Below are positions 10,491-53,715 of a stretch of 64,000 bases of DNA, piece by piece. Location: contig CP145425.1 of assembly GCA_036867785.1 (NCBI GenBank), positions 620,001 to 684,000 of the forward strand. Direction: 5' to 3'. The position numbers and the translations under genes are program-made. The stretch is from Plasmodiophora brassicae (taxonomy: Eukaryota). The notes under the pieces were generated by a model. The model was not told the origin of the DNA. It saw nothing but the letters and a program-made list of their open reading frames with translations, and did no database searches. Position 1 is the stretch's first letter; each line of letters opens with the position of its first letter.

Positions 10491-13400
10491 TGTAGACGGT
10501 GGAGCAGTGCAGCATGCCCTGTCGCAGCCAGAGATACCAAGAACAGCATCTAGGAGAGGCAGCCCTAAGACCAGGAGAGTCCGTACGGCATGCGGGAAGG
10601 CCGGACGGGGTAGAGGAGAAGGATCGAGAGATCTGGGAACGAGGACGCTGAGGTTCTCTATACACGATCTACAAAACCGGTTTTAGCCGATCGACGAGAT
10701 CCAAAGCACTATGGCACGACGATTGAAGCCCGGGCAGCAGCCAATGACGGAGGGGCTGGACCCGAGCTCACTGAAGAAGTTGGAGGAGCAGTACACGGAC
10801 TACTGTCGCATCACGTCGGAGGCGGAGGCGTACCTGCCGGAGCGAGAACGACGCGGCCCAGTCTCAATCCGGAACTGCTTCAAGTTTCATGAACGACAGG
10901 CAATTGCGATGGACGAGCTGGGACTCCAGGATGAGCAGGAGATGACGGACGCTCACCTCGAGGCGTGGATGGCCGAGGAGATTGCACAGCTGGGGAGCCG
11001 AATGGCGCACAATCTGAAGGCGGCGGAGAAGTTGCTGGCGAACGAACTGGCCATGAACACGAAACTGCCATTCCTGATCGACAGGATCAAGTCGATACGA
11101 TTCGAGTTGCGGCGTCTGGTGTCCCAAAACGGCCTGGAGTGGATGAACGACGACCAGGCGGGGAGGCGCGTCTTCGGCAAGCTAGTGGTGGATGCCATCA
11201 AGCCGATTCCGCTGCAGAAACACATGGTCGACTGGGTAGAACGGGATCCAGAAGCGCGCACTGGCGACATCGAGGGTCTGTTCCAGGAAGCCATCCGATA
11301 CGCGAATTCGGTCGTCGATGTGCTGGGCAACCCGAGCACATCTGACAAGGAGACGGTCGCCCAACTGAGGGCAATCGCGAAGGGCAATGGCGGCAACTAC
11401 CCTCGCGGTGTTAAGGTCAACAAGCGAGGCGGTCGACGGTCCCCGGAACCCACTCCCAAGCGTCAACGATTCGGTGGCGGATTCCAGCGCAACGGACGCG
11501 GTCATGAGCGCGAAGGCCCGAACGGACGACGCGGAGAAGGTCATGGTCGACACAAGACTGAAGGACACGGTCGGGACACGCCGGAAGGACAGCAGGAAGT
11601 CGTACCTGCGGGAGGCGGAAGCCAGCGAAACGGAGGACGTAATCGAGAAGATGAGCACGACGGCAACCGTGACACGAAGAAATCCCCCAAAGGTGGTTGT
11701 TTCCGATGCAAGGGCGATCACTACGTGAGCGACTGCCCGCAACCGCCAACGGAGGAGGAGCGCCGTGGTCGTGGCAACCGCGGAATAAACGCGGCACGTG
11801 TTCGAACGTACGATGGTGATGCAAGCGATGACACTCTGAGGGCAACCATCGGGGAGACCACATTCGAGTGCGCTCTGGATTCCGAATGTCGTGGAGGCAA
11901 CGTCATACCGGCGAACATTGCAGAACGGCTTGACGATGCAGCTGCGATACAGGAGATTGATCCGATCGAGATTGTCCTGGGTGATGACAAGACCACTGAG
12001 GTCTGCTCGAAGGTCCTTGCCGTTCCGATCATGAAACTGCACGGCGAACACGGGACATTGACGCTGTACAACATGCGATTCTACATCTCGACGATGATTG
12101 CGAAGACGCTGCTCGGAAACCCGATTCTCACGGCTATGGGAATTGATCCCAAACAGCAGTTGGAGTCGCTGATGTTAACGAACGTTGGGGTCATGCAGTT
12201 CGATGCTGACTCGCTCGAGACGGTGGAGAGGGTGACGGCCAAGATGATCGAACTGAGCGCCAACCACGGATGCAACCCCTACGCGAACGGCGAAGGCGAG
12301 CCGACGCGCAGTGAGATCGATCTCGGAAAGGTTGATCCGTCTGGTATCAGCAAGGCTGTCAACGACATGATCAAGCAGGCTAAGAAGAATGGCATTTCGA
12401 GGCAAGGCTTGAGGCGACTGCGGAAGATCTTGAACAAGCACATGAACGAATTCCGTACGACGCTGGGGTCTGATCCACCTGTGGACGTGGAACCACTGAG
12501 GACGGACCTGAAGGACGGTGCCACACCATATCGGTGCAAGCCGCGCATGTACAATCCGAAGCAAAAGGAGTTCTTGACGGACATGATACGGATGCTGAAG
12601 GACAACGGCCGGATCTTTGCGAATATGAACTCGAAGTGGGCCAGTCCTGTCCTGATCGTCAAGAAGCCACACGGAGACGGCTACCGACTATGCGTCGACC
12701 TTCGACAGGTGAACCTGCGATCTGAGCCAACTGTCTGGCCCATGCCGAACATCGAGGCGGGAGCCCGCAAGCTCGAAGGTATGTCGTGTTTCTTCAGCTT
12801 GGATGCCTTCAAGGGCTTCTGGTTGATGCCTCTGGACAAATCTTGTCAAGAGATGTTTTCATTCATGACAGACGATTCGGTTTGGACACCTACACGAAGC
12901 ATCCAGGGCGGACTGAACACGGCCCCGCAATTCCAAGCAAGGATGGTGAACATCTTCGACGACCTGATGGATCGAATGATGGTCTGGATTGATGATCTGC
13001 TGGGATTCGCGAAGACGGAGGCCGAGCTTCTGGAACTGCTGGCCAACGTATTCGAACGGGCACGCGAAGTCGGACTGAAGTTCAACCCTACGAAATGCAC
13101 GATCTTCGCCAGGGAGCTGGTGTGGTGCGGGAAGATCTACTCTGGCAACGGCATTCGACATGACCCGGAACGGATAGCAGCTCTGACAAGCATGCCGGAG
13201 CCGAAGACGGTTAAAGACCTGCAGCAACTGATGTGGGCGGTGGGATGGATGCGCACGAGCATCCCGGACTACCCGTACATCATCGAGCCACTACAGGAGG
13301 TCGTTGACCGGGCGAATGAGGAGCTGAAACGAACGAAGTCCAGTTCTTATGCCTCATTGACGGTGGACGCGATGGGCTGGTCTGAACGACAACGAGAAGC

Positions 13401-16400
13401 ATTCGAGAAGCTGCGGGCGGTGCTGGTCGAACACGTGCAACTGGCCTACCCCAAGAAGGATTTCCAGACCTGCCTCTTCACGGACGCAAGCGAATTCGCA
13501 TGGTCGGCGGTCGTGACTCAGATTCCAATGGAGGACATCGAATTGCCGATCAGTGAGCAACGACATGAACCGCTGGCGTTCTACGGGAAACGCTTCGACA
13601 ACACGCAGCTACGATGGCCTATCATAGAGAAAGAGGCAGCGGCGATCGTCCAGGCGACTACGCGAGGCGATTTCTTGCTGCAAACCGGACGTGAGTTCCT
13701 GCTCTACTGCGATCATCGGAATCTACGATACATCTTCAACAACGACATGGAGATGAAGAAGCACACAGCCGCAAAGCTGGAGCGGTGGTCCGTTCATCTG
13801 CAAGGATTCCGATACAAAATGGTGGACATCAGCGGGGAGGACAATGCGTGGGCAGATCTACTGACGCGATGGGGCGCGGGTCGAATCGCGCTTACGTGTC
13901 GGGCAACTCGAGTCATGTCCATGGAAGACCTGCGAGTAACCCCCATGGCGCACGACGGATTCGAATGGCCTCGTGAAGCCGACATACGACAATCCCAGAA
14001 GCTGCTGACCGATGACGAGAAGGCAGCATTCAAGGCGCAATGGGATGATCGCGACAAACTGTGGAAATCTGACTCTGGACAGGTGTTAATTCCAAGCCAT
14101 GACGACGCAGAGACGTTACGACTACGGATCCTGGTCGTGGCGCACTGCGGCAGTGCTATGCATCGTGGCGGGACAACCACCAGAGAAGCGGTTATGAGAC
14201 GATTCCGCTGGGCTGGAGTGGAGGAGCACGTGCAACAAATGTGCGATCAGTGCATGCACTGCGTCATCACTCGAGGAGGAGAACGGATTCCGCGGCCGCT
14301 GGGTCAGGCTGTTCACGGTCACGAAAGGTTTCAGGTGCTGCATATGGACTACATGTACGTCGAGCCGGTTCGCGGAGCGGACCACGACTACAAGTACATA
14401 TTGCTGCTCAAGGACGACTTCTCGGGACTTGTCCGCCTGATTCCTTGCACGAACGCGACGGCCCGAACTGCAGCTGATTCCCTGATGGCGTGGATCGCTG
14501 ACTTCGGGACGCCAGAGATCCTGGTTACCGATGGTGGTTCACATTTCACCGCTGAGGTGATGGAGGATTTGAGTCGGCTACGTCACGTTGCGCATCACAT
14601 CACGCTGGCGTACTGCCCATGGTCGAATGGAACGGTCGAACGGGCGAATGGAACGGTCGTGGAGATGCTGAGGAGCCTACTGAATGAGAACCAGATCGAC
14701 ACCCACAACTGGCCGTACGCATGTCAGCTGGTGCAACACGCCATGAACCATACGCCTTCAAAGCGTCGTGGAGGTCATGCACCGGTGACGGCGGCGTTTG
14801 GCATCCAACCGGAGAATCCTCTAGACCTGATCTGGGACTTGAAGGCTAGCAATTGGCGACCTGTGAATCCTGCGACCATTACTCAGCACATCGAGAAGAT
14901 GAAGGATGATTTCGACAACATACACAAGGATGTCGAGATGGGCAAAGAGAAGCGGCATCGAGCCAATGTCCAGCAGCGCAACAGGCAGCTGCGTCCTGGA
15001 GACGATGAAGCGTTCATTCCAGGTGACTACGTCTTGTGCGCACGACCGAACATGGGCCCGGGGAACAAACTGATCGCCAAGTGGAATGGCCCATTCCGTG
15101 TGCTGCAGCGACTGAACGATCAGGTGTACCTGCTGTACGATCCTCTTCACGAGAAGGAGTTTCGGGCGCACATCCAACGGATCAGACGATACGCTGATGG
15201 GAAGTTGAACATGACGGCGACGATGAAGAAGCATCTTCAGCACTCGAATCACAAGCTCTTGGTGGAGAATCTAGCTGACTGCCGATACAATGCGAGCGAG
15301 AAGCGAGTCGAAATCAAAGTGCTCTGGGAAGGATTCGAGGAAGCGGACGCCACATGGGAACCGGCGGACATCATAATCGAGGACGTGCCGACGATGGTTC
15401 GTGATCTGTATGACCGACTGGGAGATGACCACCCTCAGGCGGAGGAATTGCGAACACTGTTGAACTCGGCGGCGACGAACGGGAATCGCCAGCCTGCCTC
15501 GAAACGACGTCAAGCAAAAGGAGCGCGACGTCAGAGGACTAAACGACCACGGAATTGACGATATGATGACCGGCCGGCTGGAACATGGTAAAATAGCTGG
15601 TCGAAGGTTGCTAACTGTACATAGGCAACGAGGAACAACGACGCGAAAACGGAAAGGACGTCGATCGGACGCACGGTGCGCGGAGCACCTGCGTGGGCAC
15701 GGGGCCCGAACCACTGGGCATGGGACTCAGTCTGGGAACATTCAGCAAATTGGCCACTGAATGGGATCATGTACCAAATGGAAACCAACGGTACGGAACT
15801 CGCATATGCATGGGGAAACACTCCACCACAGTCGGATCCTAAAGATTGGACTTCGGCTAACCCTGGTAGTCAAACGGACGCCAGTCATCGGACTCCTAAA
15901 GATTGGGCTTCGGTGAACCGATATCGGATGGGAACGGAACTAACTACGGATGCACATGGCTGGACGCGGTGTGGGTATTCGTGGTGGTTGCGAGCGGAAC
16001 TTACTGGACGCAGTAGTGAGCTCACAACCGGCGCTGATGTAGTGTGTTGGACGCAACTCACAGAATCAGTGCATGGGGAACGGGAACTGGAATTGGATGG
16101 AACTGGGTGCGAATTGGGAACTGTGGGAGTTGGAAATGGTGCCTTAATGTCGGCGTATGACTTGTCGTACACCACATGGGGACGGTTGGATGGATCACTG
16201 GGAAATATGGACCGTTTGGTGACTCGCTGGAGTGATTTGGAATGGATGGGTGCCTGTAACGAGGTGACCACCTCCCACGTGGGGGTGGATGTCGTCAGTA
16301 TGGCTGAGAACTGTTAGCACTATGCTGACATGGTCCGGCGAATCTGATTCACTCAACTCCGTCCTTATTGCGATGAGTCTAATCTCAAGAAACGGGCGTG

Positions 16401-17156: not shown

Positions 17157-17697
17157 CCCCAAACTCCGTGGATGACATACTATGTCATGCACAGGCCTCT
17201 TTAAAGTAGAACATTGCCCTATTCGTACTATTCTAGCTTAAATAGTACACCTTGGGACGCTTAGAATAGTACATCTAGTACATCTACAGAATTCTGTCCA
17301 GTAGACGCCCTAGAATCGATCTAAGCTTAGTGTTTATCAATGCAGCAGGCCCTAGAAACGATTTGCCACATCCTGGAGTGCGCGGTATTGCTTGGCATAC
17401 ATGAATATTCCTTCCAGAACGAAATCTGTCATGGCGGCGCAATAGGCATTCCGGCGATAGGACATTAAGGAGAAGTCACCCTCGACCCGACTAGTGGTTG
17501 GCATCACGGGATACAGTTGTTGAGCCGTCATCCTCTGTTGCACAGTCGGGTTCAAATACATCCAAGCGGACCAAGCCCGTGTCACCGGCAGGTTCTTTGT
17601 CACGATCAGGCAAGCTGATGCAACGAACGCTTTGACGGACTGGCGAAGTCCGTCGCGGGGTTCGGGATTTATTCAGTTATCACAGAATAGTCCTCTT

Positions 17698-20690
17698 CTA
17701 GCGATTGGGTCTCCGCCGGTTTCGGGAGCGAGGGCCAGGTTTATCGGGATATCGAGCATGAAATTCAGCAATCGCTTGGTCCAGGCCTCCTGTCCCATGG
17801 AGATTGCCCGCGGGTTCCCAGGTGCGATCGGACGGGGAGTATCCTTCCCAATCTATGAGATATTGCAACCGCCCCGACCGGTATCGGGAATCCAAGATCG
17901 ACTTAACGATGAACAGGGGCTGGTCGTCATCTTCCAATACAATGGGCGGCGGCGGTGGCTGTTGGCGATGTGGAAGGACATTAGGCGTATACGGTTCCAG
18001 CTGTGACACATGGAAGACGTTATGTAGGCGCGAGGTAGGAGGCAGCTTCACTTCGTATGCGACGGGGTTAACTGTGCGAACAACTTGGAAGGGTCCCAGC
18101 AGACGGTCATCCAGTTTCCCGCACGGGCGGCCAGTCGATAAGGTTCCACGCCTGAGCATGACGAGATCGCCCACCTGCAGTGGTGGTGGTTCGCGGCGAC
18201 GGCGATCCGCAGAGCGCTTCATAGCGTCGACCGCCCGTTGCAGTTGGCCCTTCAAGTAGCGGCGAACCTTCTCAAGGAATTCGGCACGCTCATCGGCGGC
18301 TGGGTTACAGACTTGGCCATTCCTGGGTCGAGGCTCCGTCACCCTTGGATGAAACCCGTAGTTGGCGAAAAACGGCGACATGCCGGTGGCCGAATGGTCG
18401 GCGTTGTTGTACGCGAACTCGGCCATAGGCAGAAGTTGCAGCCAGTCGTCCTGCATGTAGCTAACATAGCAGCGTAAGTATTGTTCGAGGATCTGGTTCA
18501 CGCGTTCCGTCTGGCCGTCGGATTCCGGGTGCCGGGATGAAGACAAGTTCCGTTGGATACCAAGACGGTCCAGTAAGTGCTTCCAGAAGGCCGACACGAA
18601 CTGGGGCCCCCGGTCGGAGACGATGTCGTCCGGTAGGCCATGCAGGCGGAATATCTGCTGCAAAAACAGGTCGGACAGCTCGACCGCTGTGAGGGTCTCC
18701 TTGCACGGAATGAAGTGGGCCATTTTCGAAAACCGGTCGACGACGACGAGGACCGAATCGTAGCCGTCGGAAACTGGAAGCTTGACAATTAGATCCATTG
18801 AGATCGATGACCACAGAGAACTCGGCAAGGGAAGAGGCAGCAGGAGCCCGGACGGTTTGTGGCGCGGAGACTTGCTTCTCTGACAAATGTCGCAGGATGA
18901 GACGTACAGTTTGACGAAGGCCCTCATGCCAGGCCACCAAAATTCACGCTGGACAAGCCCAAGCGTTTTGCGGATACCAAAGTGACCAGAGGCCCTATTA
19001 TCGTGGAGTTGCCGGAGGATCTCGATCTTGCATTCGTCTCCGGAGACGACCAAGGAGCGTCCTTTGTACAGGAGGCCGTCTCTCAGGCAATACTTCCTAC
19101 CTTGAGGTCGGTCGAGCAGACCGGCAATCTTGGCGACGAACGGATCACTCGCTTGGTGTCGTCGGATACGGTCTAGGAGAGGCTCGGACGGAGCCGCCTC
19201 CGCGTGGACGGTGAACGCGTCCACCACGGGGGACGGAACTAGGCGATGAAGCGGGAGCAGTTGGAGAGATTGTTGCAGGATGCCTTCTTCAGACGCCGTC
19301 GGGACGTACTCCGGGCGGCGCGTCAAGGCGTCAGGTTTACCGTGCAAGCGGCCCGGTCGGTGCTGAATCATGAAGTCGAAGCCGCTAAGCAGTTGGGACC
19401 ATCGGATTTGGCGCGGATTAAGCTTGTGGGTCGTCATGAAGTACTTGAGGTTGCGGTGGTCGCTGTGCACAAGTGTCTGATGTTCATCCGAATCCAGGAA
19501 CTGGCGCCATTTCTCGAAGGACGCAACAACGGCCAGGAGCTCTTTGTCGTAGACCGCATATCGGATCTCAGCGGGGTCCAGTTTCCTCGAAAAGAACGCC
19601 AGAGGGTGTAAGTCCCCGTCACGGCCCCGTTGTGAGAGGACCATGGCAATGGCGAAGTCGGAGGCATCCGTTTCAATCTCGCACGGCACGCTAGGATCGA
19701 AGTGGGCGAGGACCGGAGCGCGTGTGAACGCGCTCTTCAGAGTTGCGAAGGCGGTCGAAGCAGTCTCGTTCCAGATAAATTCGGTTTCCCCGCGAGTAAG
19801 GTTCGTCAAGGGAAGTGCGATCTCCGCGAAATGCGGGATGAACTTTCGGTAGAAGTTGGCGAACCCAAGGAAGACTTGCAGCCCGTGGAGGTCACGCGGC
19901 GGGGCCCACGCGAGTATTGTGTCTACTCGGCTGGGATCCAACCGGAGGCCGTCCTTGGACACTAAGTAGCCGAGGAATTCGACCTCCGGTGCGTCGAACA
20001 AGCACTTAGACAGTTTGGCCGTCAGGCGCGCGGAGCGTAGACGTTCGAGCACCAAACGCACGTGCTGTTCATGTTCCTCAGCATTCTTGGAGAAAATCAA
20101 GATGTCGTCAAGGTAAACAACAACGAAACGGTCAATGAAGTCGCTGAATGTCTCGTTCATGAAGGCTTGAAAGGATGCCGGGGCGTTGGCAAGCCCGAAG
20201 GGCATAACCAGGTACTCGAACAATCCGTACGGTGTCCGGAATGCTGTCTTCCATTCGTCACCTTCGCGAATGCGGATCTGGTTGTACGCACTTCGAAGGT
20301 CGATCTTGGAGAAGACCGTTGCTTGACCGAGTGTCGAAAGCAGCTGGTCGATGAGCGGAAGTGGGTAACGGTTCTTCACGGTGACCGAGTTCAGGCCTCG
20401 GTAATCAACGCAAAGCCGTAACGAACCATCCTTCTTCTTCGCGAAAAGGATCGGCGCGCCGGCAGATGAACGCGACGGCCGTATGAAGTTCGACTGGAGG
20501 TTATCTTCCAAATACTTCTTGAGGGCTACCTGTTCGCGGGGAGACAAGCCGTAGAGGCGACAGAATGGAGGCTCCGTCCCCGGTTTCAGGTCGATCGAGC
20601 AGTCAGAGGCGCGGTGCGGCGGTAAGGATGTGGCGGTGGCCTCGTCGAACACGTCGGCAAAATCCTGGTATTTTTCAGGTATCTTCGTCT
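17698..20690 (-). CDS. S1 Pol: RT, RNase H, integrase, chromodomain
   Basis: [73 protein letters not shown]. Confidence 0.95.
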
Positions 20691-22061
20691 GCTCTGACTC
20701 GGGTGTCCTCGGTCCACGTATAATGGATGAGGTAGCACTGAGCGTCGTCCATGAGTGCGTCCAGGAACGGTTCGGCGTCGACTAGATGGATGGGAACGTT
20801 GGCCGCCAGAGGTTCTTCAGTGCTTGGTGCCGGCAAGGGAACGTGGTCGATCCGCGTCCCGTCGCCTTGATTAGAATCCGTGGGCCGTACGTCGCACGAC
20901 GACTGTGGAGCATCTCCGGCTAGAACGTCAGGGCCGGCGTTCGGCGGGGCGATCGGACAGGCGTCGTCAGATGACGTGTTTAGATAAGCACGAAGGTCGA
21001 CGCGTGCGGGTTCGCGGCACATAGTGACGAAGGCAAGCGCCCAAGCGGCCGCCACGATGGATGAGCACATGAACAGGCTGACCACCTGGCGTGCCCTGGA
21101 ACCGTCGTCCAAACGACAATCTGGTAGACGTCGACCGGCTCCCCGCCTGTGTCGCTGCTCCCGCGCCGGCGACGTTAGCCAGCCTGTCTGGTCGGGGAAC
21201 GATTCGAGCTCGAGGCAGTTCGCAGGGGTGTTACCGGTGTCAGCCGTTTCCAGGTCGCCAGCGGCTTTGTCCTGAGTCTCAATTGCGGCTGTCGCCAAGG
21301 ACTCTGCCACCCGGCGTTCATCGTTGGCCGCAGGCGGCAATGGTGTCACGATCAGGTCTTGTGCGGAAGTTGGATCTGGATGTTGTTTTGTGTTAACAGG
21401 CGCCTGGGCGATGAGCGGAGCTGCACTAGAGGCGTCCAGGGCCGGATAACGGCAGTCGTCGTGTGGCGCAGCCACGCTTGCCTCGGTTGTCTCAGCTTCT
21501 GCATGGCCAGGATCCGCCACAGTTGTCGGCGTTGACGTTGACGGCGAGGGGGGGCACTGGCGCGGCGAGACGAGCCGCCGGCGCCAATCCACATCTGGAT
21601 TAGTCTGGGCTAGCCAGGGCAGACCCAGGGATGACGGGATAGGTCGGCGAATTGATCAGATTCAGGACGATCTCACACGAGAACTGGGCGTCCACCGTCG
21701 TTCTCAACGGCTGAGTCTCCTGTGATATAGGTGCGAGCTGGCGGCCGTCGACAACGCGGACAGGTATCGGACGATGCGTCGGGCGGGTAGGCAGAACGTG
21801 GAGCCGCGCGAAGGACCAGTCGATAAAGTTGCTAGTCGCGCCACAGTCGATCAAGGCCGTTGTCGAGATACTTTCGGACCCGGTGTATATGGTCATCGGA
21901 AGTACGAGATGCGGGACAGAGCGGGCGTGGAGAAACATGAGATCGCTTATTTGAACAGGGTCGGGTTCGGATGACAATGCAGAGTTTACTGGGTGGCCGG
22001 CGAACCCGTTGGCGGTCACCCTTGGACATTTCCCGGTGCAACCGGCGGCCGTTTCGGGCAA
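20675..22061 (-). CDS. S1 aspartic protease plus ~300-aa linker with a hydrophobic helix (frameshifted near 21628 and ~20700)
   Basis: [13 protein letters not shown]. The expected VILGLPWL motif is split across frames. Linker ORF 20675-21592. Confidence 0.8.
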
Positions 22062-22864
22062 TCCGCGATCCGGTGGCCATCTTCTTTGCAGTAGAAGCAG
22101 AGGCCGTCCTTGCGGGCACGCTCACGGGCATCGGCGGCGACAACCTTCGGAACGGGGTAGCGCGGGCAGAGGTGTTTCGCCTTTTTGACCATCTCGTCGA
22201 AGTCGGTGATCATGTCCTCGAACAGTTTTTCCGACAAGGCAGTATGCAGCGACTTCCGGAACTTCGACGCGCGCCGGGCCGAACTCATCTTGAAGGTTGC
22301 ATCCGCGCGCTGAAGCGCTTGATACAAATTGTTGAACATCAACACATGCTCTTCGACAGGTTCGGTCTGGGTGAGGTTGTCGAAGCACTCCTCCAGCTGT
22401 TCGAACGTCGGCACCGGAAACCATTTTGACATCGCGTAGGACAGGTCGGCCATCGTGGCGTCGTCCGGCAGCCCGAAATAGACTTCCAACGCCGGGCCTT
22501 CCAGCGATCTAAGAAGGGCGCTGTGCGCCGCCGGCGGAAGGCGGGTCGTCGATGACGGGAGCTGCAGCGTCCTTGACAGACACTTCAGAAAGTCGCGGGA
22601 GTTCGTGGAACTGTCGCGAATACGCCCGGTAAAGCGGGGCAGGTGGATCTGGTGGTCGACGATGTGTCGGGATGTCGGCGACGGCTCGCTCGGCGGCATC
22701 TTGTCGGGCAGCGAGCGATTTATCGCTGTCCCAACGGCATCTTCGACCCGGTCGGCCACTACGGACTGCATAGCTTTCAGCTGGTGCAGCATGTCGCTGA
22801 CAGTGAGCGTGAGGTCCCGCACTTGATCTGCCAGTGCGGCGATCTGGTCCTCGCTCGTTGTCAT
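22016..22864 (-). CDS. S1 Gag
   Basis: LPRFTG capsid-like motif and [14 protein letters not shown] zinc knuckle. Confidence 0.9.
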   Translation of the reverse strand: MTTSEDQIAALADQVRDLTLTVSDMLHQLKAMQSVVADRVEDAVGTAINRSLPDKMPPSEPSPTSRHIVDHQIHLPRFTGRIRDSSTNSRDFLKCLSRTLQLPSSTTRLPPAAHSALLRSLEGPALEVYFGLPDDATMADLSYAMSKWFPVPTFEQLEECFDNLTQTEPVEEHVLMFNNLYQALQRADATFKMSSARRASKFRKSLHTALSEKLFEDMITDFDEMVKKAKHLCPRYPVPKVVAADARERARKDGLCFYCKEDGHRIADCPKRPPVAPGNVQG

Positions 22865-22904
22865 CGCGAACACACCGGTAGACGGACAGGAAACGGGACG
22901 GCAG

Positions 22905-23018
22905 GAACGGAGCGGGCGGAACGGAGCGGGCGGAACGGAGCGGGCGGAACGGAGCGGGCGGAACGGAGCGGGCGGAACGGAGCGGGCGGAACGGAGCGGG
23001 CGGAACGGGGCGGGCGGG
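22905..23018. repeat. 14-bp tandem repeat (GGAACGGAGCGGGC)n in the S1 5' leader
   Basis: About 8 copies read directly. Confidence 0.9.
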
Positions 23019-25857
23019 ACGGCGGTGACCGTTGGTTAGTCCGTCAAAATGTCACGATCAGGCAAGCTGATGCAACGAACGCTTTGACGGACTGGCGAAG
23101 TCCGTCGCGGGGTTCGGGATTTATTCAGTTATCACATTCTTCGCTTTCCGAATCGTCCTGCCAGCTGGACGGAGCAACACATCGCGAACGACCACGCCGA
23201 CAATAATCTTATCGATTGTGATGATTCGTTTGCGGCCAACAACAGTGCTGTGTTTCTCAAAGAACACCTCAACGGCAGTCTGATTGAAGAAATTCCTGAG
23301 AACTTCAGGTGTCGAGGCGTCAAGGTTACGGAGATTGGAATATTCCATGAGTCCATACCTTCGTAGGGTGCTGCTCAATCATATTCTTGCGAATATATCC
23401 TTCCAATGTTTGCGATTCACCGTTTTCTTTCGTTTCCGACCATCAGCAACTTCGTCATCTGCATCCTCGCGCCCCCAGCACTCACAAAAGCGGCACACTA
23501 ACAGCCTCAACAGAGCCACTGCTTTCGTTCCGTGACGTCACTCGCATCCGAACTCAAGTTCGAACTTATCCAGGTAGGGATATAATCGTTTCGGATGTTT
23601 ACGTGGAGGACCCGACATCGCGGCAGCTATCACGGGTCAGTGGGGGTGTTAGGCTGCTCCGGAACAGTACAAACAGACTCGGGGAAGTCCGTAGGCACTT
23701 GGTAAGTCCGCCACGCACTAATTAAAATAGTACAGACAGGTGCCCTTATATTAGTACATTGTACTATTCTAACGCGATTGTACTACTTTATCGAGCCCTG
23801 CATGACTCATGCAGGGCTCGGGTGTCAGAAATAGCTTTTCCGTTGTATGACATAGTATGTCATGTATGGGGGTGATTTCCGGTGGCCTGTTGCAACGGCT
23901 AGACTGACAACTATGCTGTCTGAATCGGTTCGAATGGCGTAGTCCGCCGTGCGGCGTTACCTGCGGACTTTCGTCCGATTTGAAACCGAGTGGGTTCCAT
24001 GGAGGAAGACCGCAAAGTGTGGGAGGCGGCTGTCCGCATGCTGCGGGCTGCATATGACGATGATCATGTCCGAGCACAGTGGTCTCAACCCGACGACGAG
24101 GTCAACGATGATGGGCAAACAATGTACGTAGGTTTTCCGGTATGACTACGAGAGCAGCTGCTCTCGTGGCCGAGTTGGGCGGTCCGGTCTACATGATATA
24201 TGATAACAGGGCCTATGAACACTTCTCGAGCGAAGCAAGTTTACAGTGTCGATGCATGGCTTCTTGCAAATGCGAGGCTCGTCGTACCTATTGTTTGCGA
24301 CGACATCAAAATAGTCGTTGAACAAGACGTCCGCGACCAGTCTCATCATGGTGTCGGATGTTAGCAACCTGTGTCTACAGTACTCTTGTTTCTTTGATGT
24401 TCCGGTGCGTTGCCTTCTGACATCCTTGCAGGCCATTGTTTTCGCATCTGTCGACAGCTGTTAACAGCCAACGGGCTGCCGCCCATTTGTCGCGCTTGAA
24501 TCCCGATGCGATATGGGCGATGAGCCTCTACGCGACGACGCCGACTGATACCTTCGACCCTGAGTGGTCGGATTCGTATCCACTGGCGTTTGCCGTCGAG
24601 AAACAAGCATGGTGGGAACATCGAGCACTTCAGTGCTGTGTGCTGTCTTGGTAACCGTTCCTGGCGTTTTGCGTGAACACGTGAACATTACTTGCTTGCT
24701 TGTCAGCGCATCGGGGACAAACATGCTGGACCTGCGCAGATCGACGCTTTACCCGTACCCACTCTGGAACACGCGGTTGATCACCACATTGTTAAGTTCT
24801 GGCGACAAATGAAGCAAGCGCTTCTTCAATGCCGAAGCCCACCTCCTGCCCGCGAAATCGTCCCAGCCGCTGTCTGGTTCTGAAATCATGTGAAAGGCGG
24901 CCAGGACGTTGTCTCGAGAGAGAGAGATGAACAATGTTAAGGTATGCAAATACCGCGATGTATGAGATCCATTACTGAACAGTGGCACCAGGTCGATTTC
25001 CGGCGACCGTCCCAAGACGTTAAATTGGCAGCGGCTTTGTTTCGTGTGCATGCTAAATGCGCACGAGCTGTGGCGTCTGCAGCAGCTGCAATCCCGTATT
25101 GCCGATGTGTCCAGTTTCGACAAATGGAAACATTTGTTGAACGATGAGGGTCCTTCAAACATTTTCTTCGGCTGGCCTGCCGCGACTGAGTGCCTTCTGA
25201 ATTGCAGCGTGCAGCAGAGGCAGCTGACAATCCAGTGCCGCTCCTCCAGCCACCTAAGCGGAATCTTCGGTTGTTCTTCCTGACTGAGGACGGTCGCGCG
25301 CTCCGTTTCAGACAGGGCATACGTTGTCCAGCGCTCTGGCAATAAGGGGGATGTTTACTGGGTCAATATCGGGAACCGAATGGGACATGTCGACAATGCA
25401 GCACGACGGTGTGGTGCAGCATTTGCCAAGTGCCGTTATGCAAGACGAGATTCGGTTCAAATACGTTATCATGCTTCGACAGATTCCATGATCCCGGTGA
25501 TGTCAACCTGTCTGTCCAGTTCCGCCCTGACAGTCGGACCGGGGAACGTGTATTCGACTTGGGCGTTCTGACGAACGATCGCCGTCCTCTCCTGAAGGTG
25601 GTTTGGACGCATTACTGCTTGCAAGTGGAGGACCTACAGTGCAGTCCATCGGCGGACGCCCACGACACGATGTGGCCACTTTACCCTCGGAAAACCCGGC
25701 AAGCAATCGCTCCGGACGCCGCTCGCGTGGACCAGTGACACGCTCGCAGTCCAGTCGATGATCGCATCCCCTTTGATCTTCTTGAGAATGCACCAGAGTA
25801 TCAATACAGGCAAAAGTGTGTTGCATGACATACTATGTCATGCTGCCTTTGCATGAC

Positions 25858-28320
25858 ATACTGTGCCTTTATGGCGGAAGAAGGGCAGGGAAGGTCTCAC
25901 AAAAATGCGAAGTCACAAAACTGCGCCGGTGACCTCCGCCAGAATACCTGTACATACCTACTTACCTATCAACAAGGTTTAACAGCATCCAGCGCATTGG
26001 ATTTGTTTATTCAACCCTGCCATCCGCACCCGTTCGAAGGATGCGAGCCCGGGCACCGACGTTTCTTAAAATCTGTGTGCGCGAACTGGTCCCCCCATCG
26101 TCTAGCGAATTCGTCGTCATCATCGTTACAATGTCGCCTCAAACAGTTCAGGACGGGGGTCAGGACATTATAATAGAACGTTCTCATGGACGGCGTGAAC
26201 GAATTCTTGGCCCTCCCTGCACACTGGATCTCAATACGCCGCATCGTTCGCAACTTCGCGTGCGTATCAATGTTCGACATGTCCCGATCAGCGACGTCAA
26301 AATCGCCTGCTTCACGACGACGACGTTTCCCGGATCGAGGTTCGGGTTCAAGGTCATTACGTGGTTGCTCGTCAGAAATTCCACCTGCCTGTCGCCCATT
26401 GTCAGCAATGGGAACGTGGGCACGCGGTTGTGATTGATGAAGTCCTCGTTCAGCGTCTGCGTTGAAGGCATCGTTATTGTTGGCGGGCGCATCTCCACTG
26501 GAATCCTTGTCGCTAGACACAGCAGGTCGTGCCCGGTTACGCCCACGTGCAGAGCGGCGCTGGTCGGCATTGTTATCGGCAGCATCAGGAGCATGACGAT
26601 CTTGAACTCCTTGTAGAGCATACTTTCTTGCAAGTAGCTCAACAAGTTGTCCTGTCAAGTCGCCGAACCCTTTCGCTTGCATCAGCGCAAGAATGTTGTC
26701 GATTTTTGCGTCGATACTCTGATCCCTCGCCTGCAGAATAGCTTGTGAGAGTGCTATGATGTTTCTGGTCTTGTTCGGAGCCAGCACTCTTTGAGCAACC
26801 AAATTCTCGACGAAGATCCGTACATGCCTAAACAAATCCGGCAGGCCGCCGATGGGATTCTCGTTTAGAGCCACCAGCTCTCTATGGTCGGACATGTGGA
26901 TCGCCTCCCATGTGTAATCGACGGTTAACAAAGCGCTTCGCCTGTTGACGAGTCAGTTCCGAAATTGCGTTTGGTTCACATGAATGCGAATTACTTCTGA
27001 AGCGATATCATCTTCAGGAAAGCTGCTGCCGATCCGTAGTACCGTTTAGCGCTTTCAACGGTTTTGTGCCGTGCTGACAGCATGATCTGCCCCAGTTCAC
27101 CTTTCCCCCAAATAGCTAACAAATAGCCAGTTTTTCGGAGGGTATGCGTTCCCCAAACTCGCCCGTCATCGCGTCCAACAACGTCCGAGAGCAGCTTCTT
27201 CAGTCTACGGACACGATTCGCCGTCAAATACACATTCGTAAGTGCACCATACGAGACCTACTGGTTGTTAAAGGTGGTGAAATCGAAGCAGTCACTAGAA
27301 CCCTTCTTCTTGGGAAATAGGTAACCCGACGTTATGCCAGATACGCTGAGCCACAGTAGCAGGTGGCTAACCAAGCATAGTTCGGGAACGTCTGTACAGC
27401 GCCATATCATTAACGGGACAAACGATCCATCAGCCTTGCCCTTGGTCTTGACGCCCATGCAGTTAACGTCGCCATTATCGGGATTGACAGATACCAGACT
27501 CGTCAGAATGTCTTCAATTCGGAATGGACACCCTTCGGCGGATCGGAGGAAGAGCTGGCAGTGGAAAAAGATCATCGTATAGAGACGAAGTCCCTCATAT
27601 CGATCTGCGCTGAGTAGCACTTCGCGAATCAGTTCATGTGGCATCAGCGGCGAATCACCTTGCGCAGTGTCGAGGTCGATTTGCGTCACGCGACGGTACC
27701 GGTTCTTCACGTTCTGATGCGATCGCGGGCAGCTCGATCTCCACACGCGCGGGACTCCAGCGTGAAAATTACACGAGACATTATTGTCCCGGTACGCGAC
27801 AATACACGCAGGACATGGTTCTGAGTACTGTCCGCTCTGGTGCCTCGCAACATGCAAATCACTGACAGCTGACAACAGCTGGTTGCATGAGTTCGGATCG
27901 TTCCAGGCACCCGTTGCGAGGATAGGCTGTCTCGAGAAGTAATCCAGAACGGGACCAACGCGATGAGAACTGACAGCATCGTCGCGATGCACAACAACGG
28001 GAGTGCCAGGTGACAGGACCTTGAAATCGATGAACGCCATGAGTGTGTCTGCACTCATCGATGGACAGAATTCGGTGGGAGCTCGCTCGTCGAGAATGAT
28101 CAATGACTCAAAATCACCAATTCGTTTGCAGAACAGAGCCAGCTGACGGTAGAGCTGCTTGTACTGCTTGTGCGAGTTCTGCTTCAGGACGCGATTGCCA
28201 GTCAGTTGCCCGCCGTGAGCTGGGAAGCGCAGGCCCATGCGGGCCAATGCCTCGCCGACTCTCTGCCGAACCACATCTTCTTGCGACGTTGTGAGCGGAC
28301 GCATTCGCTGTTGCACACCG
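25858..28320 (-). mobile_element. Crypton-type tyrosine-recombinase DNA transposon with spliceosomal introns (5' end probably truncated)
   Basis: YR catalytic set LFLRSAE (R), KTKGK (K), HTLRK (HxxR), ARHK (H), KRYY (Y). GT-AG introns at ~27206-27261 and ~26942-26994 join ORFs 27258-28331, 26991-27233 and 26011-26931. No RT or LTR linked. Confidence 0.82.
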
Positions 28321-28321
28321 T

Positions 28322-49558: not shown

Positions 49559-49720
49559 CAGTGCGGGCACGGTGGCCTATTCGGGCAGGACGCAATAAAA
49601 TGCCCAACTTCGCGACAATAGTGGCAAGCCAGGGGTTGTGCCCTTGCATCACCGCCAGCGTTGATGGCGGCGATTGGGTATTTCGACTCAAGATGAGCTG
49701 TGACGACAGAGCAAGATGTG

Positions 49721-52171
49721 TCAACCACACGGATTGACCGACTGAGGTCGGTCCGCGCCGTGGACGTTTATTGTACCTAGTGCGCTACGAAGGAGCCCAA
49801 TTTGGTGCCGGCTGAGTCGCCAACACGACTCAGTCGTGACATAATAGTCCCCTTTTAGCCGCACCGGGAACGGGCTGCGGGCTTGTCTGGGTGGAAGCAT
49901 TTGGTGAGGCCTAGCAAGAACTGCTTCATCATTAGGCGACAGTCTGTACTCCAGTCGACGAGTCAGGGCGTCAGGTGTCCAATGAACGAAACCAACTTCG
50001 CTAAGGAATTGGAGTGAACGAATCTGTCGTCGATGTAGCTTGTGGGCAAACGCACGTGCGGCGGCGTCCAGGAACATGAGATCGAGGTTGAGAAACGCGA
50101 TCGAGGTTGATGAGGCCTGGTCATCCTCTAGCGTAGCAAAAGGTGCAAAGAAGGACTCGGCGGGCGCATTCAAGGGCGGGGGCTCCGCAGAGGCGCTCGT
50201 ACACAGCTGTGCTATTGGAAAATACGGCCACCCAACTAGGATCCAGGTCAGGGCGACAACGGTTGCGAACATCAGAAGATTGAGGCTGTGGCCGTCTCGG
50301 AAGCCATCATTGGAGGGAGGCGGCGGGAGAGGCCGTCTGGCCCCTCGTCGCACGGGGCCCCAGTTCCGGAAGGAGGACATAAGGGGCGTGGACTCGGAGC
50401 CTGAACGGGGCAATGATAAGAGATCGGCGCGGCTGGGGGCAACAGTATCATTGAAGGCGGCGACCCCCGGGATGCTACCATAATCGAATGCGGAAGGGCG
50501 CGGCAACGTGTCAAGTGATTCAGCTGAAGGCCGGATGGCACACGCAGGCGCAGGAACGCTTCGTGCAGGAGGTGAGACCCCAGCTGAGAGACTATCCCCG
50601 CGCTTTACTGTTGCAAATGGTCCCGCCGAAGAGACGAAGGACCCAGACTCATGGACGTCTCCTGTACGGCGTGACATCCCCACGAGGGTATCTCCGCGGC
50701 GCTGTAGGCGGCGCTGACGCCAATCGATATCTGGGTTTGTATCCGCCAACCAAGGCAGCCCAAGAATGACAGGGTGTTGAGGCGAGTGGATCATGTTCAG
50801 GACGACGTCGCTGTCGAAACATTCGTCGACGGTAGCACGTAGCGGGACGGTTTCCTGAGTTACTGGAGACAGGTGTCGCCCGTCGATGACGCGAACAGGA
50901 ATGGCACGCGATTTAGAGCGAACCGGTATTTCGTGGTGACGACAGAACGACCAGTCGATGAAGTTGGAAGTCGCACCACAGTCTAACAGGGCGAAGGTGT
51001 TGACACGGCGTGAGCCGATAACGAGGCATACCGATACCAACAGATGCGGTATTGAGGGAGACGTCATAAGGAACAGATCAGTGACGTGGAGAGGGTTGCC
51101 GGACCGCTCGGGACACAGCGATGAGCGGTGGCCAACCTTACGACAGTGCGGGCACGGTGGCCTCTTCGGGCAGGACGCAATAAAATGCCCAACTTCGCGA
51201 CAATAGTGGCAAGCCAGGGGTTGTGTCCTTGCATCACCGCCAGCGTTGATGGCGGCGATTGGGTATTTCGACTCAAGATGAGCCGCCATCTCGAGAATTT
51301 TGTCGTAGTCTCTGAAGTTGTACAAGAACAGCGCTTCGGAGAGCGCAGGGTTCAGCGAGAGGCGGAACTTTTCCGCCAAGCGGGCCGGACTGAGTCTGTA
51401 CAATGGGTCAAGTCGTTGAAGGTCCTTGTACAAGCGTTGGAATGCCAGTGCGTGGTGAGCGACACCTGCAGTCTGCTTCAGGTTGTCAAACTTCGCTTCA
51501 ACCTGCTTGAACGAAGGTCCCGGGAAGTCATGGAGCAGGACGGACGAAACGTCCGCCATAGACGCGTCCGCAGGCAAGTCGAGGTAAGTCTCAAGAGCCT
51601 GACCTTGCAAGGCTGTCGTTAAGACACATTGCACTTCGCCGGATAGAGGACTTGTAGACGTTAACGACGTCTGGGTGATCCGAGAGAACGCAGTCAACCA
51701 GCGCGTCGTCGACAGACCATCCCTTCCCGAAAAACGCGGAATGTCTTGTGACTGGACAACAATAGACGTTAAGGGTGGGCCCGGAGACACCCGTGGCGCC
51801 GGCACCCGAGCCCCAACGGACGAAGCGCCAATATGCTGCGACGTTGGGGAGACAGGGTCATGCCGAGGCGCGCCGCCGGGGTCCTGCAGAGACGTCGAGG
51901 CGGCAGAAACGTGTAGGGACGATAAGGCAGGCGGGGAGTGACGGTCCGAAGAGGACAGAGAGTCGTCGGGCCAATCGGCAGCGGTACTATTGAGCGAATG
52001 CGGGGTGAGCGGTCGTGCAGGGAGATGATTCGCCAGTGGCCGAACACCACGCGCGAAGTGCAGCTGCGACAGGGGACCGAGAGCAAAATCCGACGCACCC
52101 GCAACATCCGGATTCGCGGACGATGGGACGTCGTCCGTCAATGACGGAATCGACCCATCGCCTCCTGCCAT
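49721..52171 (-). CDS. S2 Gag-protease-TM polyprotein (~816 aa), running into the 3' LTR
   Basis: IPRFSG, two CCHC knuckles, [21 protein letters not shown], hydrophobic LNLLMFATVVALTWILVGW. Confidence 0.88.
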   Translation of the reverse strand: MAGGDGSIPSLTDDVPSSANPDVAGASDFALGPLSQLHFARGVRPLANHLPARPLTPHSLNSTAADWPDDSLSSSDRHSPPALSSLHVSAASTSLQDPGGAPRHDPVSPTSQHIGASSVGARVPAPRVSPGPPLTSIVVQSQDIPRFSGRDGLSTTRWLTAFSRITQTSLTSTSPLSGEVQCVLTTALQGQALETYLDLPADASMADVSSVLLHDFPGPSFKQVEAKFDNLKQTAGVAHHALAFQRLYKDLQRLDPLYRLSPARLAEKFRLSLNPALSEALFLYNFRDYDKILEMAAHLESKYPIAAINAGGDARTQPLACHYCREVGHFIASCPKRPPCPHCRKVGHRSSLCPERSGNPLHVTDLFLMTSPSIPHLLVSVCLVIGSRRVNTFALLDCGATSNFIDWSFCRHHEIPVRSKSRAIPVRVIDGRHLSPVTQETVPLRATVDECFDSDVVLNMIHSPQHPVILGLPWLADTNPDIDWRQRRLQRRGDTLVGMSRRTGDVHESGSFVSSAGPFATVKRGDSLSAGVSPPARSVPAPACAIRPSAESLDTLPRPSAFDYGSIPGVAAFNDTVAPSRADLLSLPRSGSESTPLMSSFRNWGPVRRGARRPLPPPPSNDGFRDGHSLNLLMFATVVALTWILVGWPYFPIAQLCTSASAEPPPLNAPAESFFAPFATLEDDQASSTSIAFLNLDLMFLDAAARAFAHKLHRRQIRSLQFLSEVGFVHWTPDALTRRLEYRLSPNDEAVLARPHQMLPPRQARSPFPVRLKGDYYVTTESCWRLSRHQIGLLRSALGTINVHGADRPQSVNPCG

Positions 52172-52199
52172 GAATGCAATACAATACCAACGATAGAAG

Positions 52200-52395
52200 C
52201 GGTACGGCACGATACGATACGGCACAATACGATACGATACGGCACAATACGATACGATACGGCACAATACGATTCGATACGGCACAATACGATTCGATAC
52301 GACACAATACGATACGATACGGCACAATACGATACGGTACGGCACAATACGATACGAGTCGAGACAATACGATACGATACGGCACAATACGAGTC
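52200..52395. repeat. Pentamer-based tandem repeat (GATAC/GGCAC/AATAC; ~20-bp unit) in the S2 5' leader
   Basis: Read directly; only about 2 units in the older copy (53495-53535). Confidence 0.9.
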
Positions 52396-53715
52396 GAGAC
52401 AAGACGACGACAGAAGGTTAGTCGGTCAAAATGTGACGACAGAGCAAGATGTGTCAACCACACGGATTGACCGACTGAGGTCGGTCCGCGCCGTGGACGT
52501 TTATTGTACCTAGTGCGCTACGAAGGAGCCCAATTTGGTGCCGGCTGAGTCGCCAACACGACTCAGTCGTGACATGAGCCGCCATCTCGAGAATTTTGTC
52601 GTGGTCTCTGAAGTTGCAGAAGAACAGCGCTTCGGAGAGCGCAGGGTTCAACGAGAGGCGGAACTTTTCCGCCAAGCGGGCCGGATTGAGTCTGTACAAT
52701 GGGTCAAGTCGTTGAAGGTCCTTGTACAAGCGTTGGAATGCCAGTGCGTGGTGAGCGACACCTGGGGTCTGCTTTAGGTTGTCAAACTTCGCTTCAACCT
52801 GCTTGAACGAAGGGCCCGGGAAGTCATGGAGCAGGACCGACGCTACGTCCGCCATAGACGCGTCCGCAGGCAAGTCGAGGTAAGTCTCAAGGGCCTGACC
52901 TTGCAAGGCTATCGTTAAGACACATTGCACATCGCCGGATAGAGGACTTGTAGACGTTAACGACGTCTGGGTGATCCGAGAGAACGCAGTCAACCAACGC
53001 GTCGTCGACAGACCATCGCTTCCCGAAAAACGCGGAATGTCTTGTGACTGGACAACAATAGACGTTAAGGGTGGGCCCGGAGACACCCGTGGCGCTGGCA
53101 CCCGAGCCCCAACGGACGAAGCGCCAATATGCTGCGACGTCGAGGAGACAGGGTCATGCCGAGGCGCGCCGCCGGGGTCCTGCAGAGACGTCGAGGCGGC
53201 AGAAACGTGTAGGGACGATAAGGCAGGCGGGGAGTGACGGTCTGAAGGGGACAGAGAGTCGTCGGGCCAATCGGCAGCGGTACTATTGAGCGAAGGCGGG
53301 GTGAGCGGTCGTGCAGGGAGATGATTCGCCAGTGGCAGAACACCCCGCGCGAAGTGCATCTGCGACAGGGGACCGAGAGCAAAATCCGACGCACCCGCAA
53401 CATCCGGATTCACGGACGATGGGACGTCGTCCGCCAATGACGGAATCGACCCATCGCCTCCTGCCATGAATGCAATACAATACCAACGATAGAAACGGTA
53501 CGGCACGGTACGATACGGCACAATACGATACGAGTCGAGACAAGACGACGACAGAAGGTTAGTCGGTCAAAATGTGAAGACAGAGCAAGATGAGTCAACC
53601 ACACGGATTGACCGACTGAGGTCGGTCCGCGCCGTGGACGTTTATTGTACCTATTGCGCTACGAAGGAGCCCAATTTGGTGCCGGCTGAGTCGCCAACAC
53701 GACTCAGTCGTGACA

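What the first reader, a model, noticed from the sequence alone, without database searches (positions are those of the whole stretch)
20675..21592. Conserved transmembrane-like module downstream of the protease in Gypsy polyproteins
Seen: S1 carries ~300 aa between protease and RT, including [13 protein letters not shown]...[24 protein letters not shown]2 has an aligned segment RRGARRPLP..NDG.R...LNLLMFATVVALTWILVGW (~50185-50360) although the flanking low-complexity sequence has diverged. Known: PR-RT spacers are normally short and soluble, and env-like TM genes lie 3' of integrase. Inference: a basic patch plus membrane anchor under selection inside Gag-Pol, possibly tethering particles to membranes or vesicles; I know of no description of this.
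Basis: partly seen in the sequence, partly recalled or inferred. Interest (0 to 1): 0.8.

Follow-up and report, generated by a model that had tools for sequence, protein, structure and literature searches.

The report
Membrane-like helix inside retrotransposon polyprotein
A small group of jumping genes in the clubroot parasite carries, between its protease and its reverse transcriptase, a conserved positively charged patch followed by a membrane-type helix, a feature their relatives lack and whose job is still untested.

Summary
The segment is real. S1 is a chromovirus (Ty3/gypsy) of a Plasmodiophora brassicae genome. Its 299-aa protease-RT spacer is predicted disordered except for a basic patch followed by a 24-residue uncharged, non-amphipathic helix. 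The window copy is frame-broken at both ends of the spacer, but 6 of 7 other copies hold protease end, helix and RT in one frame. S2 is not a Gag-Pol: it is a non-autonomous Gag-protease-helix element without RT, derived from a sister family. The module changes less at amino-acid sites than its flanks in two independent family pairs (pN 0.06 vs 0.22; 0.23 vs 0.46) while synonymous sites diverge equally. Four of five autonomous sister families have such a helix; one lacks it; 0 of 103 outside spacers have one, including the two nearest outgroups. No precedent turned up in the searches run. Most likely it is a membrane-engaging helix acting on the Gag-protease side of the precursor. A simple particle tether is awkward, because a single span would put RT-integrase across the membrane. 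Membrane insertion, expression and function are untested.

The parts
23050..23136 (-). S1 5' LTR, 87 bp
   Evidence: Identical to the 3' LTR; 5-bp target-site duplication on both sides
23038..23048 (-). S1 primer-binding site, complementary to 11 nt inside the LTR (self-priming type; label recalled from Tf1/sushi)
22016..22864 (-). S1 gag with zinc knuckle
   Evidence: Pfam zf-CCHC on the sister copy
22028..22034 (-). Candidate -1 slippery heptamer between gag and pol
   Evidence: Same heptamer at the same place in families A, B, E, F, G; frameshifting itself is inferred
21575..21920 (-). S1 aspartic protease (catalytic motif 21834-21854); a frame break falls near its end in this copy
   Evidence: Pfam RVP_2 on an uninterrupted copy
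21164..21574 (-). N-terminal low-complexity linker of the spacer, predicted disordered, fast evolving
   Evidence: AlphaFold2 of family B equivalent, pLDDT under 50; flank dN/dS about 0.8
21089..21163 (-). Basic patch (9 R/K in the 30 aa before the helix)
   Evidence: A vs A2 dN/dS 0.10 over 27 codons
21017..21088 (-). 24-residue uncharged, non-amphipathic hydrophobic helix (TM-like)
   Evidence: KD19 2.13, 12 of 5000 shuffles as high; hydrophobic moment 0.08; only long helix in the modelled spacer
20792..21016 (-). C-terminal low-complexity linker of the spacer
20714..20791 (-). Conserved pre-RT block shared by all five autonomous families; second frame break of this copy lies just after it
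   Evidence: hhalign prob 90.7 between A/B/C and F/G rows
17698..20685 (-). S1 RT, RNase H, integrase, SH3, chromodomain
   Evidence: Pfam on an uninterrupted copy
17598..17684 (-). S1 3' LTR
52432..52574 (-). S2 5' LTR, 143 bp (shared with a truncated tandem unit reaching 53715)
49721..52171 (-). S2 single ORF: Gag, zinc knuckles, protease, spacer with helix, novel tail running into the LTR; no RT
50288..50350 (-). S2 basic patch
50222..50287 (-). S2 hydrophobic helix (within a 36-aa uncharged run)
   Evidence: KD19 1.97, 58 of 5000 shuffles
49848..49856 (-). S2 polypurine tract candidate
49699..49841 (-). S2 3' LTR

Best explanation
The module is a lineage-specific, selected membrane-engaging helix in the Gag-Pol precursor. 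Shown: it is in frame in Pol, hydrophobic enough to span a bilayer by simple scales, isolated in a predicted disordered linker, preceded by arginines, and conserved at the protein level. Inferred: only ribosomes that slip -1 make it, so it sits on a minority of Gag molecules; the folded Gag-protease half stays cytosolic (positive-inside rule) and is docked through a linker of roughly 120-190 aa on an endomembrane, most plausibly ER or nuclear envelope, which concentrates precursor, protease and the translating genomic RNA at an assembly site, as SRP-dependent ER docking does for Ty1. Inferred and required: RT-RH-IN must not be translocated, so either the protease cuts just after the helix (leaving a tail-anchored Gag-protease-linker) or the helix is embedded without threading the downstream chain. 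The RT-less family C keeps exactly the Gag-protease-linker-helix half, which fits an anchor that works for the N-terminal side.
For: Hydrophobicity: KD19 2.13/1.92/1.97/2.56/2.78 in families A/B/C/E/F against at most 1.46 anywhere in RT-to-chromodomain; Hessa-scale sums -2.7 to +0.2 against 6.9 or more; shuffles reaching the Hessa value 2, 52, 9, 4, 4 of 5000 (scales recalled). Uncharged runs 24-36 aa, moment 0.04-0.14. Basic residues on the N side in A, B, C, E (9, 8, 6, 6 in 30 aa). Selection: A vs A2 module pN 0.06 vs flanks 0.22 (Fisher p 3e-05), pS 0.27 in both; B vs C pN 0.23 vs 0.46 (p 2e-05), pS 0.50 vs 0.51, helix differences at codon positions 1/2/3 = 8/2/7; A vs B pS 0.75 with pN 0.40. 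All 3 amino-acid variants in the helix among 13 family C copies are hydrophobic swaps. AlphaFold2: one 23-residue helix in an otherwise unstructured spacer, not packed confidently on the protease. Hydrophobic helices of unlike sequence in E and F at similar or other places suggest the property, not the sequence, is kept. Precedent for ER docking of a retrotransposon nascent chain: PMC3945221 (abstract read).
Against: No TM predictor (DeepTMHMM, Phobius) could be run; A, B and C are only marginal on the Hessa sum. Family B's KD peak is reached by 544 of 5000 shuffles. Family G lacks the helix (KD 0.62) yet has a 1749-codon open frame. Among close family E copies the module shows no constraint (2 synonymous, 8 non-synonymous changes; dN/dS 1.75). 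Helix-only A vs A2 rests on 6 changes (dN/dS 0.47); much of that pair's signal is in the basic patch. B vs C flanks align poorly, which inflates flank pN. The A/B/C profile finds only the basic motif in E (6.6 bits; 2 of 300 shuffles as high). The tail after the helix is 60-120 aa, long for a tail anchor unless cut; no cleavage site is shown. No expression, peptide or localisation data.
Confidence: 0.5

Rival explanations
1. Not a membrane anchor but a buried helix that binds its own kind or a partner (another Gag-Pol, the capsid interior, a chaperone), helping protease dimerisation or Gag-Pol packaging; the arginines bind genomic RNA.
For: Needs no topology fix; position inside the particle fits; A, B, C share a small-xxx-small pattern (rows); F and G share a basic stretch plus an amphipathic helical block at a similar place that is not TM-like, so a basic-plus-helix unit may be ancestral to the clade.
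Against: The helices in A, B, C, E have almost no hydrophobic moment and no charged face, unusual for a soluble packing helix; the F/G block does not align with the A/B/C module; E and F helices differ in sequence from A/B/C.
Confidence: 0.2
2. A dose-limiting sink: the helix works as a type II signal anchor that sends part of the RT-RH-IN chain into the ER lumen or to degradation, keeping Pol low.
For: Follows directly from the N-side basic patch; 5-6 N-glycosylation sequons lie downstream in A, B, E.
Against: Family C keeps the helix without any RT to limit; sequon counts are not shown to exceed chance; a -1 frameshift already sets the ratio (inferred).
Confidence: 0.12
3. A non-env fusogen or egress factor (sORF2/FAST-like or a fusion peptide after a furin-type site) that spreads particles between cells.
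For: Env-less retrotransposons with small TM proteins exist (PMC11952523 passages; PMC5408684 passages); family A has an RxRR motif 20-odd residues before the helix.
Against: Polarity is reversed (FAST/sORF2 have the polybasic region C-terminal of the TM); no separate ORF, signal peptide or ectodomain; Pfam finds nothing in the spacer; the RxRR form is absent in B.
Confidence: 0.05
4. A by-product: a neutral low-complexity expansion, or conservation of an RNA element or another reading frame, that happens to read hydrophobic.
For: Ala/Val-rich spacers; family G lacks it; family E copies show no constraint; family B module folds with z -3.0.
Against: Synonymous sites in the module diverge as fast as in the flanks and saturate between A and B; pN below pS inside the module in all three pairs (p 0.001, 0.002, 0.0002); A, C, E fold no better than shuffles; the other five frames carry stops and no comparable peak in helix-bearing families.
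Confidence: 0.06

Closest known systems
Chromoviruses of the Tf1/sushi-like fungal-type group (Ty3/gypsy, Metaviridae; group label recalled)
   Same: LTR-gag-(-1)-PR-RT-RH-IN-SH3-chromodomain order, 5-bp TSD, self-priming-type PBS, RT 50-65% identical to fungal and metagenomic elements
   Different: PR-RT spacer 279-366 aa against medians of 77-88 aa, with a TM-like helix seen in 0 of 103 outside spacers
dUTPase inserted between PR and RT in bdelloid and basidiomycete LTR elements (PMC5408684, section 3.1 read)
   Same: Accessory module gained in the same interval of Pol
   Different: A folded soluble enzyme there; here a lone hydrophobic helix in a disordered linker with no known family
Ty1 SRP-dependent ER docking of nascent Gag and RNA (PMC3945221, abstract read)
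   Same: A retrotransposon nascent chain is taken to the ER to nucleate assembly; the model for how this helix may work
   Different: Ty1 is a copia element and the traffic concerns Gag, which passes into the lumen; here the candidate signal lies in Pol behind the protease
sORF2/FAST-like proteins of MDG1-group elements (PMC11952523, passages read) and TM-bearing extra ORFs of rotifer and plant elements (PMC5408684, PMC11728184, passages read)
   Same: Non-env TM helix with a basic neighbour encoded by an LTR element
   Different: Those are separate ORFs before gag or after pol; sORF2 has its basic region C-terminal of the TM; here the helix is inside the Pol frame with the basic region N-terminal
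TR-GAG-type non-autonomous LTR elements (name recalled; only search listing seen)
   Same: S2/family C: LTRs, PBS, PPT, Gag, no RT
   Different: Keeps a protease fused in frame to Gag and the helix

Membership tests
Chromovirus (Ty3/gypsy) | Pol order PR-RT-RH-IN | tested here: met
   Pfam RVP_2, RVT_1, RT_RNaseH, rve in that order
Chromovirus (Ty3/gypsy) | Chromodomain at integrase C terminus | tested here: met
   PF00385 E 7.6e-12 (A) and 5.4e-13 (B)
Chromovirus (Ty3/gypsy) | LTRs with TG..CA ends and target-site duplication | tested here: met
   87-bp identical LTRs, 5-bp TSD
Chromovirus (Ty3/gypsy) | Placement in a named clade (Tcn1, Tf1/sushi etc.) against reference elements | not tested
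   Trees held only database hits, no named reference elements
Single-span transmembrane anchor | About 20 uncharged residues of high mean hydrophobicity, low moment | tested here: met
   (recalled scales; marginal for A, B, C on the Hessa sum)
Single-span transmembrane anchor | Call by a trained predictor (DeepTMHMM, Phobius) | not testable with these tools
   No such predictor available
Single-span transmembrane anchor | Actual integration in a bilayer | not testable with these tools
   Needs bench work
env / env-like ORF3 | Separate ORF 3' of pol with signal peptide, ectodomain and C-terminal TM | tested here: not met
   Helix lies in the Pol frame; integrase-chromodomain is followed directly by PPT and LTR; no Pfam hit in the spacer
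sORF2/FAST-like fusogen | Stand-alone ORF of 63-107 aa, N-out, polybasic region C-terminal of the TM | tested here: not met
   Features; here basic region is N-terminal and the helix is in a 1473-codon frame
Autonomous Gag-Pol (claim for S2) | RT, RNase H, integrase present | tested here: not met

The most novel reading that the evidence does not exclude
A chromovirus clade of a plasmodiophorid parasite has evolved, perhaps twice (A/B/E and F), an integral membrane anchor inside Pol, so that Gag-protease precursors assemble or mature on an endomembrane such as the nuclear envelope without any env gene; and a non-autonomous family makes a constitutively fused, membrane-anchored Gag-protease that captures or regulates the particles of its autonomous partner.
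Probability: 0.3. Interest if true: 0.8.

Novelty: new variant of a known kind. Interest (0 to 1): 0.57.

Why it matters
LTR retrotransposon Pol proteins are taken to be soluble, with membrane contacts left to env-like or small accessory ORFs. A selected TM-type helix inside Pol would be a different way to couple retrotransposon assembly to a membrane, and poses a clear topological puzzle that a 60-residue reporter assay can settle. The sister family without the helix and the RT-less family that keeps it are natural controls. The reach is limited so far: one clade in one species.

Tried and rejected
Homologues of the module outside the species: profile search of 1.84 billion representatives gave 2 hits, both repeat proteins matching away from the helix; ESM Atlas gave no usable hit for the S1 spacer or the F/G block; the module profile found nothing in six frames of 80 metagenome loci or in 206 fetched proteins apart from the species' own P0001. 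These blanks do not show absence: I saw no named hit from another phytomyxid, so close hosts may be unsampled. Expression: no RNA holder listed on record; contigs of 4 runs from 4 studies, RNA status only guessed, span the stretch in one piece with no joint, which shows no splicing in those contigs but cannot show transcription. Homodimer prediction of the module: no answer, not used either way. AlphaFold2 of the family F spacer from one sequence gave a 60-residue straight helix and does not decide hairpin against two spans. An internal start at the methionine in the helix was considered: invariant in A, A2, B, C but absent in E, so dropped. Homology of the F/G helical block with the A/B/C helix was suspected by eye but not supported. 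An AU test that all helix-bearing families form one clade was inconclusive (p 0.057; group named after seeing the tree). The C-flank polymorphism count is spoiled by one rearranged copy and was not used. Supplements of the papers were not read.
Full report
Setting. The window is G000:C18:620001-684000 of a 25.3-Mb, 20-contig eukaryotic genome. The best named protein hits to these elements are Plasmodiophora brassicae proteins, so I take that as the host species. The region is dense in mobile elements.

What S1 is. S1 is a minus-strand LTR element with identical 87-bp LTRs (17598-17684, 23050-23136), a 5-bp target-site duplication, a primer-binding site complementary to its own LTR, gag, and a candidate -1 slippery heptamer. 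Pfam on a sister copy gives protease, RT, RNase H, integrase, SH3 and chromodomain in that order: a chromovirus. In the window the spacer frame 20675-21655 is in frame with neither protease nor RT. The genome holds 7 more near-identical copies, one diverged copy (A2, 77%) and one partial match. Of the 7, six hold protease end, helix and RT in one frame and five have a single 1473-codon Pol. Contigs of 4 public runs from 4 studies match the stretch with two gaps, no other difference and no joint. So the in-frame reading is the normal state of the family; the window copy is broken, by mutation or assembly error.

What S2 is. S2 has 143-bp LTRs, one 816-codon ORF with zinc knuckle and protease and no RT. 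Its LTR is about 90% alike to, and its Gag 56% identical with, an autonomous family B found through it. All 7 B loci fetched hold protease end, helix and RT start in one frame. Of 14 family C loci, 8 hold zinc knuckle, protease end and helix in one open frame.

Is the match real. S1 against S2: 16 of 39 identical, pairwise E 3e-05; 3 of 5000 shuffles reach the score.

The clade. An RT search found three more autonomous families (E, F, G). The five form one clade: support 100 in a quick tree of 48 rows, 90/95 and 95/92 in careful trees of 12 and 15 rows. F and G are sisters (97/97, 100/99); E with A and B is 89/96 in one tree and unresolved in the other. Spacers are 279-366 aa. A hydrophobic helix is in the RT frame in A, B, 4 of 7 E-type loci (the other three break upstream), and 4 of 4 F loci; it is missing in both G loci with a long frame. 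F has a longer hydrophobic stretch of about 50 aa at another place and without the basic patch before it.

Hydrophobicity. With recalled scales, best 19-residue Kyte-Doolittle means are A 2.13, B 1.92, C 1.97, E 2.56, F 2.78, G 0.62; the best anywhere from RT to chromodomain is 1.46. Shuffles of each spacer reach the value 12, 544, 58, 8, 1 and 3387 times in 5000; on the Hessa scale 2, 52, 9, 4, 4 and 3457 times. Uncharged runs are 24-36 aa with hydrophobic moments of 0.04-0.14. A, B, C, E have 9, 8, 6, 6 basic residues in the 30 aa before the helix and 3, 1, 0, 2 after it. AlphaFold2 on family B protease plus spacer folds the protease, leaves the spacer unstructured and draws one helix at the module, at low confidence. 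No trained TM predictor was available.

Outside controls. Spacers that my patterns could delimit: 57 of 84 proteins, 37 of 120, 7 of 80 metagenome loci and 2 more. None of these 103 has a TM-like run (KD 1.9 or more, or Hessa sum 2.5 or less); medians are 77, 83 and 88 aa; only 6 are 200 aa or longer, so the length-matched control is small. Among rows dropped for lack of a parsable protease end, P0067 has a hydrophobic run that lies before its protease and P0192 has a borderline one (KD 2.01, Hessa 3.1) that I did not follow up. The two nearest outgroups, P0096 and P0207 (joined to the clade at 100/99), have 100-aa spacers with KD 0.85 and 0.79. The long spacer and the helix therefore arose within this clade, as far as sampled.

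Selection. Over 49 codons of basic patch plus helix, A vs A2 gives pN 0.06 against 0.22 in 172 in-frame flank codons (Fisher p 3e-05) with pS 0.27 in both; B vs C gives 0.23 against 0.46 (p 2e-05) with pS 0.50 and 0.51; A vs B has pS 0.75 and pN 0.40. In the B-C helix the codon positions differ 8/2/7 times, the pattern that keeps hydrophobicity. The three amino-acid variants among 13 C copies are F/V, A/T, I/L. Against: close E copies show 2 synonymous and 8 non-synonymous changes in the module; helix-only A vs A2 rests on 6 changes; B-C flanks align badly; the A/B/C profile recognises only the basic motif of E and nothing clear in F or G. Nucleotide-level constraint is unlikely: synonymous sites are free and only B folds better than shuffles (z -3.0; A, C, E within 0.5).

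How it most likely works. Shown: position, frame, hydrophobicity, flanking charge, selection in A, B, C. Inferred: a minority Gag-Pol product carries the helix; the arginines keep the N side cytosolic; a long flexible linker lets Gag-protease dock on an endomembrane and gather there with the translating RNA. Ty1 offers the model, its RNA being taken to the ER by SRP to nucleate assembly (PMC3945221, abstract). The catch is topology: a plain single span would carry RT-integrase into the lumen, and in a closed capsid the helix would lie inside. The anchor must therefore act on the precursor, with the downstream chain cut off or not threaded. Family C, which keeps only the upstream half plus helix, fits this. 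I put it at 0.5; a non-membrane packing helix at 0.2; an ER sink at 0.12; a fusogen at 0.05; a by-product at 0.06.

Comparison with what is known. The PR-RT interval is a known insertion site: dUTPase sits there in rotifer and basidiomycete elements (PMC5408684, section 3.1). TM helices in LTR elements are described in separate ORFs: rotifer ORF3s, Athila extra ORFs (PMC11728184 passages), errantivirus env (PMC13524379 passages) and sORF2 (PMC11952523 passages). The module fails the env and sORF2/FAST tests on position and polarity. Five searches aimed at a TM within gypsy Pol or at the PR-RT spacer returned 0, 21, 0, 0 and 50 papers; I saw the listings and read passages of four listed papers, none of which describes it. 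A genome paper of the species mentions Gypsy repeats only in general (passages). The library lacks most subscription journals, so this is not proof of novelty.

Verdict. A real, selected, lineage-specific TM-like module inside the Pol of an ordinary chromovirus: a new variant of a known kind. Interest 0.57. A separate lead met on the way, an apparent Gypsy-Copia chimeric family elsewhere in the genome, may be as interesting as the finding itself.

Noticed in passing
G000 C1:1808921, C12:126617, C15:177242, C16:727701, C17:377250, C13:274293, C6:327287, C13:996024, C17:220950 (loci L161-L169; outside the window): An LTR family that looks like a natural Ty3/gypsy-Ty1/copia chimera: Gag with Ty3_capsid, Retrotrans_gag and DUF4939 hits, a slippery heptamer, a gypsy-type protease 41-45% identical to S1's, then copia-order gag_pre-integrase, integrase, SH3 and RVT_2 in one frame (1189-1307 codons in 8 of 9 matches; LTRs 99-100% alike in the 3 checked). 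No literature check was possible. Worth its own study.
   Followed up: partly
window 49699-53715 and family C loci L011-L024: Non-autonomous family with Gag fused in frame to protease (no frameshift), 8 of 14 loci with zinc knuckle, protease end and helix in one open frame; ORF ends inside the 3' LTR; tandem units share LTRs.
   Followed up: partly
L066:3835-4335 and L071:3749-4249: Families F and G share a basic stretch and a helical block of about 55 aa before the pre-RT motif, with no Pfam or Atlas match.
   Followed up: partly
window 22878-23036 and 52169-52425: Short tandem arrays (14-bp and 10/20-bp units) lie between PBS and gag start in both S1 and S2.
   Followed up: no
window 23038-23048 and 52413-52431: Both elements have a PBS complementary to their own LTR rather than an obvious tRNA end; S1 LTRs are only 87 bp (S2 complement seen by eye).
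   Followed up: partly
window 10687-15558: A second, distant Gypsy lineage with chromodomain and a single 1623-codon frame; its PR-RT interval (92 aa scored) has no hydrophobic peak, KD 0.65.
   Followed up: partly
window 60360-63008 (-): Long Thr/Pro/Ala-rich ORF built of 24-nt repeats, mucin-like by eye.
   Followed up: no
window 27258-28349 (-), 28593-29795 (+), 34576-35796 (-), 39566-44705 (-): Other mobile-element-like ORFs that by eye resemble a tyrosine recombinase, a LINE, a DDE transposase and a copia element (labels recalled, not tested).
   Followed up: no
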